From a virus (Duplodnaviria; Heunggongvirae; Uroviricota; Caudoviricetes): DNA of 34,937 nt. Shown here piece by piece: positions 7,123-12,670 of this stretch. The notes below the pieces were generated by a model, which did not search any database, was not told where the DNA came from, and saw only the letters and a program-made list of their open reading frames with translations. The stretch lies in IMG/VR virus record IMGVR_UViG_2571042690_000022; one strand, given 5' to 3'. Every line of letters starts with the position of its first letter. Position 1 is the first letter of the stretch. The position numbers and the translations under genes were made by a program.

Positions 7123-8042
7123 TACTGCATATCCTCCGGTCGGTTGATTTCAGGTTCCGGTTCGGTCAGCCAGGCGGGGGCATCGTTACCCGATGGAGCG
7201 GCCTCAAGGTCAAACGTCTCACGTAATGCATGAACACTGCGTTCAATCTGGCAGACCAGACCGGCCATGAAATCTCTGGGGGTATCGATCATGTTTTTGG
7301 TGCAGTATTCACACAGGGTCTCAAAAACACTGGACAGCCGGACGGCGATAGCCGATTCGGCCTCAACCGCTAATGCCGTCACTTCCGCCCGCAATTTTTT
7401 CAGTTCTTCGTCTGGCGGCGGAGGTTGCAGGCGCGATTTCTTCTCCAGTTTTGTGGCCAGTTCGTTGATTTTTTCGTCCTTTCCGGCAAGCACCTGTTGC
7501 TGAGCTGCGTTGGTTTCGCGCGCTTCACGCAGGGCGGCCTTCAGTTCGCGGCTGGTCATGCGATCAATATCATCAAGCGTTGCACCGGCGACGGTTCCAC
7601 CATCAGCTAATGCGTCGAGTTCTTCGTCATCCAGAACCATCAGTTCATATAACTTGGTTTTTCCCAAAACGCTCAGCGCTGAGCGTTTTGGCTGTTCATC
7701 TCCATTGCCGAGAAATTTCACGCTGGCCTGCATCATGCGACGAGCTACCTGTGGTGCTAATCCGAGGTCGTTTTCCAGAATATTTGTGAAATCACCATGC
7801 GGTTCATTTTCTTTTAAGATGATCAGCCGCTTACCCGCTTCCAACATAGATTCAGCACTCTGCGCCATATAAAAACGTGCTTCGTGAACGATGCGTTCAC
7901 GTTCATAAGGCAGTCCATCACCAAACTGCTGCATGATCTCCATGCGATGCTGTGTCATGGCATTCAGGCTGACGTTGAGATCATCCGACAGCGGTACATC
8001 GGCGTTCAGTTCAGTGTTAATCGGTGATTTGGTACGTCCCAT
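7122..8042 (-). CDS. hypothetical early protein (possibly DUF3102-like)
   Basis: 306-aa ORF with AAGGAG RBS about 8 nt upstream of ATG 8042; predicted coiled-coil middle region; family assignment is a recollection only. Confidence 0.45.
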   Translation of the reverse strand: MGRTKSPINTELNADVPLSDDLNVSLNAMTQHRMEIMQQFGDGLPYERERIVHEARFYMAQSAESMLEAGKRLIILKENEPHGDFTNILENDLGLAPQVARRMMQASVKFLGNGDEQPKRSALSVLGKTKLYELMVLDDEELDALADGGTVAGATLDDIDRMTSRELKAALREARETNAAQQQVLAGKDEKINELATKLEKKSRLQPPPPDEELKKLRAEVTALAVEAESAIAVRLSSVFETLCEYCTKNMIDTPRDFMAGLVCQIERSVHALRETFDLEAAPSGNDAPAWLTEPEPEINRPEDMQ

Positions 8043-8052
8043 TGATTACTCC

Positions 8053-8361
8053 TTACAAACGACTACCTGAAATGACACGTTGGTTAATTTCGTTAATACG
8101 ATCCTGTGCACGTGCCATCTCGTTACTGTGGGCCATGGCGATCTGCAGTAACTGGATGCCCGGTGCAAAACGTCCGTTCTCCAGTTTCAGAGCCAGCCCT
8201 TCTTCAATGAGGGTGTTGAGTGCCCGGTTGATGTTTGCCGGTGACTCGTGCAGTGCTGTCGCCAGTTCACCGTTAGAAATACCGTTCAGGGCATGACCGC
8301 GCAGCGCTTTGAGTACCCGGAGGATGCGACTGCCGGAGCTTGAAACATTCGTCTTACTCAT
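8053..8361 (-). CDS. winged-helix DNA-binding protein (IclR/MarR-like HTH)
   Basis: SRILRVLKAL...GISNGELATAL...NINRALNTLIEEGL resembles a wHTH N-terminal domain; start uncertain (8361 or 8367). Confidence 0.45.
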   Translation of the reverse strand: MSKTNVSSSGSRILRVLKALRGHALNGISNGELATALHESPANINRALNTLIEEGLALKLENGRFAPGIQLLQIAMAHSNEMARAQDRINEINQRVISGSRL

Positions 8362-8413
8362 CTGCATACCTCTTTTGCGATATGTGATAACCTTTTACAA
8401 AGACTCAAAATAT

Positions 8414-8602
8414 TTAGGCCGCCTGAGCTGTTGATTTCAGTCCCAACTTCACGGCGATTTCATGGGATTTACCGTAACGGGCTTTGGTCTGCCCGTTGAG
8501 AACGCGGTATACCTCATTGCGGTTGTAGCCGTTTTCTTCTGCCCAGCGGGTGAAAGTGATCCCGCGCTGGCGGAAGAGAGCTTTGACTTGTTCTGCAGTC
8601 AT
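8414..8602 (-). CDS. Ner-like DNA-binding protein (Cro-like early regulator)
   Basis: 62 aa; pattern resembles the Ner/Nlp family; first gene of the leftward operon, divergent from the repressor; AAGGAG RBS 7 nt upstream of ATG 8602. Confidence 0.6.
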   Translation of the reverse strand: MTAEQVKALFRQRGITFTRWAEENGYNRNEVYRVLNGQTKARYGKSHEIAVKLGLKSTAQAA

Positions 8603-8695
8603 CGTTGTCTCCTTTGTTGATGCAATGATGTTTGCCTTATATGTGTTAGATTATTGCTCATAATTATGAGCATATCAAGATAGAGATTCACTTTT
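8603..8695. promoter_or_regulatory. divergent early-promoter / repressor-promoter switch region
   Basis: 93-bp AT-rich gap between divergent ner-like and repressor genes; contains the 8655-8672 palindrome and a TATAAG-like -10 (rc of 8636-8641) suitably placed for the leftward operon. Confidence 0.5.
8655..8672. promoter_or_regulatory. candidate operator: 18-bp perfect palindrome TGCTCATAATTATGAGCA
   Basis: Perfect dyad read directly from the sequence; its right half TTATGAGCA recurs at 8694-8702 overlapping the repressor start codon. Confidence 0.5.
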
Positions 8696-9052
8696 ATGAG
8701 CAAAGATATAGGAGAGCGCGTTATTTCTGTGAGGAAGAAAGCAGGGTTGAACCAGAGAGAATTTGCAGCTCGTTTAGGTATTTCTAATGGTGGTATCAGT
8801 CAGATTGAAAATGGAAAGGCGATGCCTGGAGGGGAGTTTCTGTTAAAGATGCATCAAGAGTTTAATGTTGATGTAAATTGGTTGCTCACTGGAATGAGCA
8901 CAGATGGTATGACTAGAAACCAGAATCAAATTTCCCCAGAAAAACAAAAACTAATAGATACTTTTGACGACATGACACCAGACCAACAACGCTCATTTCT
9001 TGAGATTGGGCGATTCTATACTCAGCCAAAACCAGGAAAAATCGCAGGCTGA
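8696..9052 (+). CDS. XRE-family HTH repressor (lysogeny repressor candidate)
   Basis: 118 aa; N-terminal HTH (LNQREFAARLGISNGGISQIENGK); divergent from the early operon; gene is markedly AT-rich relative to its neighbours; weak or no SD. Confidence 0.75.
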   Translation: MSKDIGERVISVRKKAGLNQREFAARLGISNGGISQIENGKAMPGGEFLLKMHQEFNVDVNWLLTGMSTDGMTRNQNQISPEKQKLIDTFDDMTPDQQRSFLEIGRFYTQPKPGKIAG

Positions 9053-9137
9053 TACTGACCCGGACACAAAGGACAGGTGGTTGATCTGGATGCTTTCAGA
9101 AAACATCGCCAGTGACATAGTGGAAGTTGTTTGGTTT

Positions 9138-9170
9138 ACCGGAAAGCATTGTGCTTTCCGGTTTTGTTTC
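9138..9170 (+). terminator. rho-independent terminator-like hairpin
   Basis: Stem ACCGGAAAGCA (9138-9148), loop TTG, stem TGCTTTCCGGT (9152-9162), then TTTGTTTC; lies between the convergent repressor and dam 3' ends. Confidence 0.5.
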
Positions 9171-9933
9171 AGAAGTTGCAGATTAGCAGTTCACGGCGCG
9201 GCGTGGGTTTACCCGCCAGACTGTAGTTGATATTCACTGTCTGTATGTTCAGTCCAGTGAACACCTCGCGCATCTGCGGGATGTCGTTCACCGAAATTAT
9301 CATTTTTCCTCTGATGCACCGGGCCAGCTCTGCCAGCCGCGAGTAGTTCCCTTCAGGAAAATCCACACCATAGCCTTCCGTACCCAGGTACGGTGGGTCG
9401 CAGTAGAACAGCGTGTGCGGACGATCATAACGCTCAATGCACTGTTGCCAGTCCATGTGTTCTATGACTGTTCTGGAAAGCCGCAGGTGTGCCGCTGACA
9501 GTTCTTCTTCAATACGTAGCAGGTTGAAGCGTGGCGGGGATGTGGTGGAGGTACCGAAGCTGTGCTCTGCCACCTTGCCGCCAAACGCCTGCTTCTGAAG
9601 GTAGTAGAACCGTGCCGCACGCTGGATATCCGTCAGTGTTTCTTCCGGGGTGATCTGCAGCCATTTGTAGATCTGACGGCTGACCAGCGCCCATTTGAAC
9701 TGGCGGACAAATTCTTCCAGGTGATGCTTTACCACCCGGTACAGATTCACCAGTTCACCGTTGATATCATTGATGACTTCGATCTTGCCGGGTGTCTTAA
9801 GAAAATAGAGCGCTGCTGCCCCACAAAACGGCTCCACATAACATTCATGCGCCGGAAACAGCGGCAGAATGTGTTTTGCAAGGCGGCGTTTGCCACCAAT
9901 CCACGGCACGATGGGTAATGTCTGCATTTTCAT
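9169..9933 (-). CDS. dam: Dam-family DNA N6-adenine methyltransferase (orphan, no cognate endonuclease seen)
   Basis: WIGGK, YVEPFCGAAALYF, INDINGELVNLY and FYCDPPY match E. coli Dam motifs as recalled; start set at ATG 9933 (MKMQTLPIV) rather than the ORF-track start at 10023. Confidence 0.85.
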   Translation of the reverse strand: MKMQTLPIVPWIGGKRRLAKHILPLFPAHECYVEPFCGAAALYFLKTPGKIEVINDINGELVNLYRVVKHHLEEFVRQFKWALVSRQIYKWLQITPEETLTDIQRAARFYYLQKQAFGGKVAEHSFGTSTTSPPRFNLLRIEEELSAAHLRLSRTVIEHMDWQQCIERYDRPHTLFYCDPPYLGTEGYGVDFPEGNYSRLAELARCIRGKMIISVNDIPQMREVFTGLNIQTVNINYSLAGKPTPRRELLICNF

Positions 9934-10038
9934 AATCTGCAAGCCTTTTACAATTATTAAAAAATATGGCAGTCTGGTCAGGTCTCGCGAGACTGACTGA
10001 ACCTTGGTCGGCTCACAGCGCATTCCTGTGGGGCGATG

Positions 10039-10068
10039 ACCAGCCCGGCTTTCGGGTGCCGGGCTGGT
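10039..10068. other. strong hairpin (11-bp GC-rich stem, 8-nt loop) in the dam-upstream intergenic region
   Basis: ACCAGCCCGGC (10039-10049) pairs perfectly with GCCGGGCTGGT (10058-10068); followed on the plus strand by CGTTCTTTC. Confidence 0.4.
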
Positions 10069-10123
10069 CGTTCTTTCATGATGCGGCAGGGATGGCGGGA
10101 TTTCTGTTAATGTGGTTTAGGGA

Positions 10124-10339
10124 TTATCCGGGGCGATTTTCTGACCTTATCCGGTCCAGGGCATAAGTAATACCTTCTGCAAAAACAGAAGTATCAAACT
10201 GCTTTTGTATTCCCTGAAAATGAAAAGCGGCACGACAGACACTCAGTTCTCCGCGGTATAACCGGATAATATCTTCCAGAACATTGTTCACTGCTTCAGC
10301 ACGGCGCTGATGTTCTGTTAACGTTAATCGGGGATTCAT
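10124..10339 (-). CDS. hypothetical small protein (71 aa)
   Basis: ORF with strong AAGGAG RBS 7 nt upstream of ATG 10339; lies in an AT-rich patch; start codon overlaps head-to-head with the 10338 plus-strand ORF. Confidence 0.35.
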   Translation of the reverse strand: MNPRLTLTEHQRRAEAVNNVLEDIIRLYRGELSVCRAAFHFQGIQKQFDTSVFAEGITYALDRIRSENRPG

Positions 10340-10742
10340 GATGCACTCCTTAAATGATGATTTTTATGTACTCACCGGCAAAATATTCTGCCGATTACTG
10401 AACACGCATCCGGCACCTCAGGTTTTGATTTATTCTGGTTTTTTCGATATCCCGGACCAGGTTGATCACGACCAGAAAAAGTGCCGGTGTTTTATTGATA
10501 CGCTGATATGGCTTCGGGATAACAGCTATATTCGTTACTCTCAGTTGCTGGCTGTGGGAGCGGCTGATGTCGTCCTCACGGAAAAAACGCTCTGTCTGCT
10601 CAATGCCATGCCGACCTTTCTGCAGCCCCGGCCCGTACCATTTAAAGAGTCACTTCTGGATGCAGTAAAAACCGGTGAAAATGCAGTCATCGCTGAATGC
10701 GTATCCCGGATTATGCGTTACGTGTTTAATGAACGTAAGTGA
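10338..10742 (+). CDS. hypothetical protein (134 aa)
   Basis: Long ORF in AT-rich DNA where chance ORFs are rarer; GGGGA 4-8 nt upstream of tandem ATGs; fills the only gap lacking a minus-strand ORF; reality uncertain. Confidence 0.35.
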   Translation: MMHSLNDDFYVLTGKIFCRLLNTHPAPQVLIYSGFFDIPDQVDHDQKKCRCFIDTLIWLRDNSYIRYSQLLAVGAADVVLTEKTLCLLNAMPTFLQPRPVPFKESLLDAVKTGENAVIAECVSRIMRYVFNERK

Positions 10743-11446
10743 GGTTTATCCGCTGTCTGCATAATCCCGATAGCCAGTGCGAGGGGAAGTAATTCCGGGG
10801 AAACTCTTTCAAACAGCGATGCCCATTCTCCTCTCGCCATCACTCTGTCCAGCCCGCCCTCCAGTTGCATTTCAGCAATCTTCCTGATTTCCCGGAACAA
10901 CGCCGCTTTGATCTCTTCATGCTCAGCTTTATTTTCCGGTGTCAGAAGGTATTCGTCGAAGAACCGGGGAGGCTGGTTAATCGGGATGTGTTCCTGTTTG
11001 CCGTACTTCGGGGACGAACAACATTCTGTTGACTGACCAGTGAGTTTACGTAACTCCTTCATGAGCAGCTCCTGATCGTAAACTGTCATCAGTGCCGCAA
11101 TGGTGGCATGCAGTGCATCGGGCAGTATCCAGGGTTGCCGGCCCGTGGGGCATATAACATCCAGCAGCTCATTCGTCCGACAGATACGCTCCTCGCCGTA
11201 TGACAACAGGCCCTGTCCCGTGTATTCCTCCAGCCTGATCACTGTGCCAGCCCGTGGTTTCTGCCATGTGCTCAGATCATCCCCACTCATACGGCGCTCA
11301 CCGTCCACGTCTGCGGCGTCGACAATGACGCTGTTTCCGAATTCCTGTTTCACCACTTCCTCTATTCGCGCCAGTACGTAACTTTTACCGCTGCCCACAG
11401 GACCGGACACGGTGACAGTGATGACCGGATTCAGTGTCTGCGTCAT
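10718..11446 (-). CDS. P-loop NTPase/kinase-like protein of unknown function
   Basis: 242 aa; Walker A GPVGSGKS at residues 16-23, then hydrophobic strand plus acidic segment SVIVDAADVDGERR; GAGGAG RBS upstream of ATG 11446; divergent from the late lysis operon. Confidence 0.55.
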   Translation of the reverse strand: MTQTLNPVITVTVSGPVGSGKSYVLARIEEVVKQEFGNSVIVDAADVDGERRMSGDDLSTWQKPRAGTVIRLEEYTGQGLLSYGEERICRTNELLDVICPTGRQPWILPDALHATIAALMTVYDQELLMKELRKLTGQSTECCSSPKYGKQEHIPINQPPRFFDEYLLTPENKAEHEEIKAALFREIRKIAEMQLEGGLDRVMARGEWASLFERVSPELLPLALAIGIMQTADKPHLRSLNT

Positions 11447-11508
11447 ATCGTATTCTCCTCTGTGAATAATTCATCGTTTATCCTGCACATCCCGTATCCC
11501 CGGCTCTC

Positions 11509-11526
11509 TTAACGCGCTTTAAAATC
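11509..11526 (+). promoter_or_regulatory. late-promoter motif copy 1 (TTAACGCGCTTTAAAATC) upstream of lysis genes
   Basis: One of four copies of TTAA-N6-TTAAWATC, each in a late intergenic gap 32-56 nt before a start codon. Confidence 0.45.
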
Positions 11527-11576
11527 CTTCGCGCCCTGTATTTGTGATGCTGTCTCCACCAGATAAGGAGACACAC

Positions 11577-11927
11577 ATGAAAAACCTGAAAAAATTCATT
11601 CCCCCTGTTAAAAAACCTCGCCTCAGCGGCTGGCTGCTGACCTCAGTGCTGTTGCTGGGCACCATCGCTCTGGTCTCACCACAGCAGCTGCCTGTTGTGA
11701 TCTACAAGCTGGCACTCATCACGCTGGCAGCAGTGCTGGGTTACTGGCTTGACCGTTCGCTCTTCCCCAAAGCCCGTCCCGGTCAGTACCTGAAACATGA
11801 CGACAGGCTGATGGCTGAAGGGCGTTTCCCGGTACAGACCGGCCTTCACCTGGTGTTTTCTGCTGCGTTAATCCGCCGTGCACTGATTGTTGCAGCGGTC
11901 TGCCTGGCTGTTGCGATGGGGCTTTAA
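11577..11927 (+). CDS. holin-like membrane protein
   Basis: 116 aa from ATG 11577 with AAGGAG RBS 7 nt upstream; 2-3 predicted TM helices; immediately precedes the endolysin. Confidence 0.5.
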   Translation: MKNLKKFIPPVKKPRLSGWLLTSVLLLGTIALVSPQQLPVVIYKLALITLAAVLGYWLDRSLFPKARPGQYLKHDDRLMAEGRFPVQTGLHLVFSAALIRRALIVAAVCLAVAMGL

Positions 11928-11929
11928 TC

Positions 11930-12670
11930 ATGAACTGGCCGCAGATCACCTGGATTGTATGCATGTCCCTGAAACTGGCTTTCGAAGCCTTTCGGGTCTT
12001 CATCAGAACCGAACGCCTGTCAGTCCGCGCCGGGACCTTTCTGGTTCATATGGCATGGGTATTCTTTGTCGCAATGTTGCTCTGGTGTGGCGGCTTTTTC
12101 AGCCAGGCATGCGCAGCACAACCTCCGCAGGCTGCGCTGCAGTATCGCGATGATGTGATCCGTAATGCCCGGCTTGAATGGGGACTGTCTGCGCCGGTGG
12201 CCGATTTCGCCGCGCAACTGCATCAGGAAAGCGGCTGGCGACCTGATGCGATCTCGCCGGCTGGCGCTCAGGGACTGGCGCAGTTCATGCCTGCCACTGC
12301 CGACTGGATAAGCCAGTTGATACCGATGCTGAGCAGTCGTGAGCCGTTTAATCCGGCATGGGCTATCCGGGCGCTGGTCAGCTATGACCGCTGGCTGTGG
12401 CAGCGTGTCAGCGCCGCCAGTGACTGCGAGCGTATGGCCATGACACTGTCGGGCTATAACGGTGGTCTGGGCTGGGTACAACGGGACAGGCGGCTTGCAT
12501 CACAGAAAGGTCTGGACAGCACCCGCTGGTTCGGACATGTCGCCACGGTGAATGCCGGACGCAATGCGGCCAGCTGGCGGGAGAACCGCCATTATCCGCA
12601 GCGCATCCTGCGCGAACTGGCACCGCGATATCTCACATGGGGAGGCAGCAGTTGTGTGGCATCTGGTTAA
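11930..12670 (+). CDS. endolysin, lytic transglycosylase (SLT domain) with N-terminal hydrophobic segment
   Basis: QLHQESGWRPDAISPAGAQGLAQFMPAT contains the catalytic ES and GxxQ motifs of SLT lytic transglycosylases; N-terminus has hydrophobic stretches (signal or SAR-like). Confidence 0.75.
   Translation: MNWPQITWIVCMSLKLAFEAFRVFIRTERLSVRAGTFLVHMAWVFFVAMLLWCGGFFSQACAAQPPQAALQYRDDVIRNARLEWGLSAPVADFAAQLHQESGWRPDAISPAGAQGLAQFMPATADWISQLIPMLSSREPFNPAWAIRALVSYDRWLWQRVSAASDCERMAMTLSGYNGGLGWVQRDRRLASQKGLDSTRWFGHVATVNAGRNAASWRENRHYPQRILRELAPRYLTWGGSSCVASG

What the first reader, a model, noticed from the sequence alone, without database searches (positions are those of the whole stretch)
10124..10742. 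Two small ORFs with head-to-head overlapping start codons in an AT-rich patch
The minus-strand 71-aa ORF starts at 10339 (strong AAGGAG RBS) and the plus-strand 134-aa ORF starts at 10338, so their start codons overlap on opposite strands. Both cannot have conventional upstream promoters; either one is spurious or each promoter lies inside the other gene. The patch has distinctly lower GC than its neighbours, suggesting separate acquisition.
Basis: seen in the sequence. Interest (0 to 1): 0.5.

Follow-up and report, generated by a model that had tools for sequence, protein, structure and literature searches.

The report
Conserved head-to-head phage gene pair
Two small prophage genes that point away from each other and share the four bases CATG as their start codons are both real, and the same arrangement recurs in many unrelated temperate phages, so it looks like a compact, uncharacterised gene cassette rather than an annotation artefact.

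Summary
A 71-aa ORF (S, minus strand, 10124-10339) and a 134-aa ORF (L, plus strand, 10338-10742) share the palindrome CATG (10337-10340) as start codons. Each ribosome-binding site lies in the first codons of the other gene. The patch has 45.7% GC against 55.2% for the window.

Neither ORF is spurious. L belongs to a family with 195 cluster representatives and models as a winged-helix protein. S models as a three-helix bundle. In related P2/186-like phages both show frame-specific purifying selection (pN/pS 0.09-0.24).

The CATG arrangement recurs in 8 of 11 sampled L lineages: BcepMu-like prophages, the P2 gpA-gpQ defence hotspot, a P2-like lysis cassette and a P4-like satellite. Gene callers often miss S.

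Natural L deletions in both clades keep S and a 5' stub of L of about 14-19 codons. This places S in the leftward P-loop-S-Dam operon, with L nested antisense in it.

I infer mutually exclusive expression through convergent transcription and paired 5' ends. This is not shown, because no promoter scored above background. Protein function is unknown. I rate it a new variant of a known kind, of moderate interest.

The parts
10124..10339 (-). S gene: 71 aa, predicted three-helix bundle (PGAP WP_001069611.1; phrog_4490)
   Evidence: ORF list and PGAP annotation. AF2 model has pLDDT 90.9. Homologues occur in Serratia, in Salmonella and in loci L044, L033 and L043. S is kept intact when L is deleted.
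10338..10742 (+). L gene: 134 aa (133 if it starts at 10341), a winged-helix domain plus a C-terminal helical hairpin (PGAP WP_000972294.1; phrog_2266)
10337..10340 (.). CATG palindrome that holds both start codons
   Evidence: Sequence. The same CATG junction is found in 8 of 11 sampled L lineages.
10346..10351 (-). Shine-Dalgarno AAGGAG of S, lying in codons 3-5 of L
   Evidence: Sequence. Equivalent GGAGG, AGGAG or GAGG motifs occur at the same place in most other lineages.
10330..10334 (+). Weaker SD-like GGGGA of L, lying in codons 2-4 of S
   Evidence: Sequence. AGGGAA and GGTGAG occupy the same place in relatives.
10035..10080 (+). Plus-strand intrinsic-terminator-like hairpin with a U-rich tail just beyond the S stop codon; it bounds the region that can hold L's promoter
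   Evidence: Fold energy -34.2 kcal/mol, z -4.1. The minus-strand reading has no U tail. The tool's scan calls an equivalent terminator in L004; a weaker equivalent hairpin (z -1.8) is present in L030.
10718..11446 (-). Upstream gene of the leftward unit: a 242-aa P-loop-like protein whose 3' end overlaps the 3' end of L by 25 nt (context)
   Evidence: It lies directly upstream of S in the L-deletion variant L039.
9169..9933 (-). Downstream gene of the leftward unit: DNA adenine methylase (context)
   Evidence: Pfam MethyltransfD12, E = 9e-29. Start as annotated by PGAP.

Best explanation
Both ORFs are genuine genes. Together they form a conserved, mobile two-gene accessory cassette of temperate phages: a small three-helix protein (S) and a winged-helix protein (L). 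They are encoded back to back, with start codons sharing the palindrome CATG and no intergenic DNA.

Because each ribosome-binding site lies in the first codons of the partner gene, each mRNA leader must be antisense to the partner's translation-start region.

In this prophage S is most likely read as part of the leftward unit P-loop gene -> (antisense of L) -> S -> Dam. L is read rightward from a weak or factor-dependent promoter inside S. L is therefore a gene nested antisense in an operon.

The expected result is mutually exclusive expression. Convergent RNA polymerases would interfere with each other, and the two 5' regions could pair and mask both ribosome-binding sites at once. L, as a winged-helix protein, is the likely DNA-binding regulator of the unit.

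Shown here: the geometry, the coding status of both genes, the conservation of the arrangement, the folds, and the operon context from the deletion variants. Inferred: the promoters, the interference or antisense mechanism, DNA binding by L, and any S-L interaction.
For: Geometry and ribosome-binding sites. PGAP annotates both genes in most of about 500 E. coli genomes. The annotators of phage Midge placed each RBS inside the other gene.

S: pLDDT 90.9. An HMM of Mu-type S, searched against 641 six-frame ORFs from 12 loci, ranks exactly the CATG-abutting ORFs of L044 (E = 3e-10), L033 (1e-3) and L043 (0.03) on top.

Frame-specific purifying selection in the P2-type clade: S pN/pS 0.11-0.24 (p from 0.03 to 1.5e-6), L 0.09-0.19 (p from 2e-6 to 7.5e-20). 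Out-of-frame readings give pN/pS mostly about 1 or above (0.44-4.3), none significantly below 1.

The CATG junction occurs in 8 of 11 L lineages and in four kinds of backbone.

Two independent natural L deletions keep S plus a 5' stub of L (17 codons in L039, about 14-19 in L037) that carries S's SD. In L039 this puts S 53 nt behind the P-loop gene.

A plus-strand terminator lies just beyond the S stop codon.

Synonymous diversity in P2-type L dips at codons 1-16 and 33-52 (permutation p = 0.015), as expected if S's leader or promoter is embedded there.
Against: No sigma-70-like promoter inside either ORF scores above shuffled sequence, and candidate positions are not conserved between clades. 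No synonymous-site dip was found in S.

S alleles in the P2-type clade recombine independently of L: S dS is saturated where L dS is 0.56. S also survives without L. Both facts argue against tight functional dependence.

P2-type S is not detectably homologous to Mu-type S.

Within the window's own E. coli clade L looks relaxed. There are 6 nonsynonymous and 0 synonymous differences between the window and L016, and truncated or deleted alleles exist.

There are no transcript data, and no function is assigned to either protein.
Confidence: 0.55

Rival explanations
1. The genes are neighbours by architecture only. S is an ordinary member of a leftward phage operon. L is an unrelated moron that inserted antisense right against S's start codon. 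The overlap reflects genome compaction, and the two genes are not coupled in regulation or function.
For: L deletions leave S intact in two clades. S and L have different recombination histories. Other L-family genes are antisense insertions in phage operons without an S partner (L025, L031, L042).
Against: S and L travel together with the identical CATG junction into four different backbones: BcepMu-like prophages, the P2 gpA-gpQ hotspot, a P2-like lysis cassette and a P4-like satellite. This holds in 8 of 11 lineages whose L proteins share only about 25-33% identity. Independent insertions would not recreate the same junction, nor the same S family.
Confidence: 0.2
2. The pair is a toxin-antitoxin-like, abortive-infection or superinfection-exclusion module. 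One protein is the effector and the other neutralises it, and the head-to-head layout sets their ratio. This concerns function and could coexist with the expression model above.
For: The cassette sits in known defence and moron hotspots, next to a reverse transcriptase plus HTH, Fic, GNAT, a ComEC-like gene, a HipA_2-like gene and an AbiJ-like gene. Rousset et al. 2022 describe the gpA-gpQ locus as a defence hotspot (PMC9122126).
Against: No PADLOC hit for any of the five S and L proteins scanned. No toxin or enzymatic domain was found in Pfam. S-only variants exist with L deleted. The cassette usually accompanies variable cargo rather than being the cargo. Known type II toxin-antitoxin pairs are co-directional operons.
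Confidence: 0.2
3. One of the two ORFs is a spurious reading frame.
For: The GenBank record of phage PhiKM annotates only S. Some PGAP records omit S. Metagenome gene callers often omit S.
Against: Both show frame-specific purifying selection, family-level conservation and confident folds. The omissions affect S even in loci where its homology is significant, so they are misses by the gene callers. One possible reason, from my own recollection and not checked here, is that common callers disallow 5'-5' overlaps.
Confidence: 0.03

Closest known systems
Face-to-face (convergent) promoter switches of P2/186-type phages (186 pR/pL, P2 Pe/Pc)
   Same: Divergent genes whose promoters point at each other, so that their transcripts overlap at the 5' ends and interfere. 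They occur in temperate phages of the same group that carries one clade of this cassette. (PMC7498355 and PMC5001618 were listed. The details given here are from my own knowledge.)
   Different: In those switches an intergenic region holds both promoters and the operators, and the genes are the phage's central lysis-lysogeny regulators. Here there is no intergenic DNA, the start codons overlap, the promoters are unidentified, and the cassette is accessory and can be deleted.
Excludon / divergent genes with overlapping 5' transcripts (Listeria excludons; scbA-scbR of Streptomyces)
   Same: Oppositely oriented genes whose mRNAs are mutually antisense, giving either-or expression or a bistable switch (PMC4179725 and PMC3134472, listed).
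   Different: Those cases rest on mapped transcripts. Here only the geometry forces the overlap, no transcript has been observed, and the overlap reaches the start codons themselves.
Phage morons and cargo of the P2 gpA-gpQ and P4 hotspots
   Same: Low-GC accessory genes placed between or antisense to core operons of temperate phages. The P2-type clade of the cassette sits in the gpA-gpQ hotspot (PMC9122126).
   Different: The cassette matches no PADLOC model. It tends to sit beside the variable cargo rather than vary with it.
MarR/PadR-type winged-helix regulators and DUF2513 (YjcQ-like)
   Different: No Pfam model matches above noise. L has its own N-terminal helix and C-terminal helical hairpin. 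DNA binding is untested.
Type I toxin-antitoxin loci in which an antisense RNA covers the RBS (for example symE/symR)
   Same: An RNA transcribed from the opposite strand is complementary to the Shine-Dalgarno and start codon of its partner (from my own knowledge).
   Different: Here both strands encode conserved proteins, and no toxin is evident.

Membership tests
Winged-helix (MarR/PadR-like) DNA-binding fold | Helix-turn-helix followed by a beta-hairpin wing | tested here: met
Winged-helix (MarR/PadR-like) DNA-binding fold | Sequence-specific DNA binding or transcriptional regulation | not testable with these tools
   Needs EMSA, ChIP or reporter assays.
Pfam MarR / PadR / DUF2513 (YjcQ) families | Score above the family's gathering threshold | tested here: not met
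   No such hit for the window's L, the Serratia homologue P0012, the P2-type homologues or 53 family members. A profile search of the PDB gives YjcQ (2hgc) only at E = 0.36.
Known anti-phage defence systems (PADLOC-DB v2) | Match of either protein to a defence-system model | tested here: not met
   No hit at E <= 1 for the S and L proteins of the window and of phage Midge, the Serratia S protein and the Serratia L homologue P0012.
Type II toxin-antitoxin module | Co-directional two-gene operon with a recognisable toxin domain | tested here: not met
   The genes are divergent. No toxin domain was found in Pfam or PADLOC.
Excludon / convergent-promoter switch | Divergent genes whose transcripts must overlap in antisense | tested here: met
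   There is zero intergenic distance, and each SD lies inside the partner's coding sequence. This is forced by the geometry alone.
Excludon / convergent-promoter switch | Mapped promoters and reciprocal effects on expression | tested here: inconclusive
   Promoter scans do not exceed shuffle background. A synonymous-site dip in P2-type L is suggestive only. Transcript data are needed.
PHROG families phrog_4490 (S) and phrog_2266 (L) | Significant full-length HMM match | tested here: met
   E = 7e-53 and 2.6e-44. Both families are labelled 'unknown function'.

The most novel reading that the evidence does not exclude
The S-L cassette is a widespread, self-contained genetic toggle with no intergenic DNA. 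The two mRNAs are mutual antisense RNAs that mask both ribosome-binding sites. L is a winged-helix repressor made in the lysogen and S is its antagonist made during lytic or SOS transcription. The toggle gates expression of adjacent hotspot cargo such as Fic, HipA-like, ComEC-like or RT systems, or of a phage function. This would be a new class of compact phage switch, and one that gene callers systematically miss.
Probability: 0.2. Interest if true: 0.75.

Novelty: new variant of a known kind. Interest (0 to 1): 0.55.

Why it matters
If the inferred coupling is real, this is the most compact form of a convergent-transcription or antisense switch: two protein-coding genes with no intergenic DNA and shared start-codon bases. 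It is conserved across phage families and sits in the hotspots that carry defence cargo. It would be a simple, portable system for testing how transcriptional interference and mRNA-mRNA pairing set either-or expression. It might also explain how hotspot cargo is kept silent or switched on. In practical terms, the S partner is often left out of annotations, so such pairs are under-counted.

Tried and rejected
- **Rfam, 8000-12000 at E <= 1:** no RNA family.
- **Pfam, PADLOC and a PDB sequence-profile search:** no informative family for S or L.
- **Foldseek of L against BFVD:** nothing below E = 0.05.
- **afdb50 fold library:** not available.
- **Genome-contig scan with the Mu-type L alignment:** found nothing. 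A second scan with the P2-type alignment gave 4 loci.
- **hhalign of Mu-type against P2-type S:** no detectable homology.
- **Promoter hunting:** the tool's scans and my own position-weight scan gave no hit above shuffles and no position conserved between clades.
- **Leaderless-mRNA idea for L:** rejected, because no -10 element lies at a suitable distance from the ATG and SD-like motifs are present.
- **Locus L008 (75% S homologue):** riddled with frameshifts, probably assembly noise, and not used.
- **Variation within the window's own E. coli clade:** too sparse for a selection test.
- **Literature searches by protein accession and for 'overlapping start codons':** nothing found.

Full report
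**Context.** The window is a BcepMu-like (Mu-type transposable) prophage. Over the 1.6-kb stretch around the finding that was searched (9900-11500), it is 100% identical to Escherichia phage PhiKM and to prophages in hundreds of E. coli genomes, many of them ST131. The finding lies between two regions. On one side is the immunity region: a plus-strand repressor at 8696-9052, with a Ner-like gene and the transposase operon running leftward. On the other side is the rightward lysis and late operon, with the holin starting at 11544. Between them the genes are, in order: Dam methylase (minus, 9169-9933), S (minus, 10124-10339), L (plus, 10338-10742) and a 242-aa P-loop-like gene (minus, 10718-11446).

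**Observation.**
- The junction is CATGATG. S starts on the complement of 10337-10339 and L starts at 10338-10340.
- S's AAGGAG (10351-10346) lies 6 nt from its ATG, inside codons 3-5 of L.
- A weaker GGGGA (10330-10334) precedes L, inside codons 2-4 of S. Its spacing fits the second ATG (10341) better, so in this phage the two start codons either overlap by 2 nt or are 1 nt apart.
- GC is 45.7% for S+L against 55.2% for the window, in the lowest 1.6% of equal-sized windows.

**Both genes are real: evidence for L.**
- L hits phrog_2266.
- A profile search of 1.84 billion cluster representatives returns 195 proteins at E <= 1e-3. Nearly all are 125-150 aa and match over their full length.
- With a 77-sequence alignment, AlphaFold2 gives pLDDT 90.4.
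- No Pfam, PADLOC or PDB sequence family matches.

**Both genes are real: evidence for S.**
- S hits phrog_4490.
- It has recognisable homologues in Serratia (31% identity) and Salmonella prophages.

**Selection.** In the P2/186-type clade, where divergence is sufficient, both genes show strong purifying selection that is specific to the reading frame. S has pN/pS 0.11-0.24 and L has 0.09-0.19. The same DNA read out of frame gives pN/pS mostly about 1 or above (0.44-4.3), none significantly below 1.

**The arrangement is conserved.** The same CATG head-to-head junction, with a good SD for S inside L's first codons in most lineages, occurs in:
- Serratia-type BcepMu-like prophages (L004-L007);
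- a Salmonella BcepMu-like prophage (L030);
- P2/186-like phages and prophages, including Midge, FSL SP-004, Klebsiella ST147-VIM1phi7.1 and prophages of Citrobacter, Escherichia, Entomohabitans, Scandinavium and E. coli.

I then checked seven L-family loci where the gene callers had reported no divergent partner. Four carry an uncalled minus-strand ORF of 64-88 aa that starts exactly at a CATG on L's ATG:
- L033, in a P4-like satellite;
- L040;
- L044, a BcepMu-like phage, between an AbiJ-like gene and the holin;
- L043, inside a P2-like lysis cassette.

An HMM built only from Mu-type S proteins was searched against all 641 six-frame ORFs of at least 40 aa from 12 loci. Its top three hits are exactly the ORFs of L044 (3e-10), L033 (1e-3) and L043 (0.03). 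The S proteins of the P2-type clade and of L040 are not detectably related to these. They may be a diverged or a second type of partner.

In total, 8 of 11 sampled L lineages carry the arrangement, although their L proteins share only 25-33% identity. Under a simple random-sequence model the chance expectation is about 1.2% per lineage.

**How the genes are probably expressed (inference).** Two natural deletion variants are informative.
- In E. coli SCU-105 (L039), the same prophage lacks about 325 nt of L. It keeps L's first 17 codons, which carry S's SD, and its last 10 or so. S remains an open frame, with only its last few residues changed by a small insertion, and now lies 53 nt downstream of the P-loop gene on the same strand, followed by Dam.
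- In E. coli PKF8 (L037), and probably in Salmonella phages SW9 and SI22 (whose matches also cover only 48% of the query; their sequences were not read), the P2-type L is likewise reduced to a 5' stub of about 14-19 codons while S stays intact.

S therefore behaves as a member of a leftward operon that reads antisense through L.

For L, a stable hairpin with a U-rich tail lies on the plus strand only, just beyond the S stop codon (10035-10080; -34 kcal/mol, z -4.1). The tool's scan calls an equivalent terminator in Serratia, and a weaker equivalent hairpin is present in Salmonella. L's promoter should therefore lie within the 216 nt of S.

Neither the tool's scan nor my own position-weight scan finds a sigma-70 promoter above shuffle background, and candidate positions are not conserved between clades.

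In the P2-type clade, synonymous diversity in L dips at codons 1-16 and 33-52 (permutation p = 0.015). This is compatible with S's leader, or a promoter, being embedded there. S shows no such dip.

The geometry alone guarantees one thing: any leadered S mRNA is complementary to L's start region, and the reverse also holds. Convergent transcription and RNA pairing that mask both ribosome-binding sites are thus the most economical mechanism. This remains unproven.

**Caveats on coupling.**
- S alleles in the P2-type clade have a different history from L. Between L022 and L023, S dS is saturated while L dS is 0.56.
- S persists without L.
- In the window's own E. coli clade L may be under relaxed constraint. 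There are 6 nonsynonymous and 0 synonymous differences against L016, truncated alleles in L009 and L018 that may be assembly errors, and the deletion in L039.

These points keep alive the rival view that the two genes are only neighbours. That view is hard to square with the pair moving together into four kinds of phage backbone.

**Function.** Function is unknown.

The cassette sits in accessory regions. One is the P2 gpA-gpQ locus next to cos, which Rousset et al. 2022 describe as a hotspot of anti-phage systems (PMC9122126). There it lies beside variable cargo: a reverse transcriptase plus HTH, GNAT, Fic, a ComEC-like gene and a DinI/Tum-like gene. The others are a P4-like satellite hotspot upstream of a HipA_2-like gene, a position next to an AbiJ-like gene, and a lysis cassette.

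In several loci L is the first gene of a plus-strand cargo unit (L024 Fic, L035 ComEC-like, L033 HipA_2-like). This suits a regulator. No defence-system model matches.

**Verdict.** What is there is a conserved, largely unannotated head-to-head cassette of a winged-helix protein and a small helical protein. It is probably an antisense-nested accessory unit with either-or expression. I rate it a new variant of known convergent-transcription or excludon-type arrangements. Interest is moderate, and would be higher if transcript mapping confirms the coupling.

Noticed in passing
window 9934-10123: The 190-nt Dam-S intergenic region holds a second inverted repeat (about 9975-10000), a motif GGCTCACAG that recurs in the Serratia (as a one-mismatch variant, GACTCACAG) and Salmonella relatives, and then the plus-strand terminator hairpin. 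A minus-strand promoter-like site (CTGACC-17-AATAAT, 9981..9953) could drive Dam on its own. A plus-strand -35-like TTTACA lies upstream of the hairpins, so a short plus-strand RNA ending at the terminator is possible. Rfam has no match.
   Followed up: partly
window 10718-11446 (minus): A 242-aa protein with an N-terminal Walker-A-like motif (GPVGSGKS) gets only weak AAA, KAP and HerA-like hits. Its 3' end overlaps the 3' end of L by 25 nt. A homologue is present in the Salmonella relative L030, but a non-homologous 89-aa gene replaces it in Serratia.
   Followed up: partly
window 9169-10023 (minus): The Dam ORF can be read as 284 aa from 10023. PGAP starts it at 9933 (254 aa), whereas the PhiKM record uses the long form.
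   Followed up: no
PhiKM record PQ738613 (L001) compared with RefSeq prophages (L002): The GenBank phage record annotates S but neither L nor the HTH repressor gene at window 8696-9052. Instead it calls a 41-aa ORF on the opposite strand. PGAP records differ on whether S is called.
   Followed up: partly
L022:312-340 and the aligned positions in L023-L038: A nearly invariant non-coding block, GATAACATATTGATATAGATC, lies immediately beyond the S stop codon in all P2/186-type loci. It contains a GATC site and, on the minus strand, a perfect match to the IHF consensus as I recall it (WATCAANNNNTTR). It also overlaps a -35-like TTGATA that could serve L.
   Followed up: partly
L022:960-1010 and phage 186 30366-30413: A conserved hairpin directly after the L stop codon in P2/186-type loci is also present in phage 186, which lacks the cassette. 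This marks the right-hand insertion boundary, next to the DinI/Tum-like gene.
   Followed up: no
L043:2254-2508: In a P2-like lysis cassette the gene caller reports a 77-aa plus-strand ORF over the same DNA where an 85-aa minus-strand S homologue lies (HMM E = 0.03). One of the two calls is probably wrong.
   Followed up: partly
window 8650-9162: The immunity region has the lowest GC of the neighbourhood (38-43%). It contains a strong minus-strand promoter-like site (TTGATA-17-AATAAT, 8678..8650) for the early operon, and a terminator (9138-9162) after the repressor gene.
   Followed up: no
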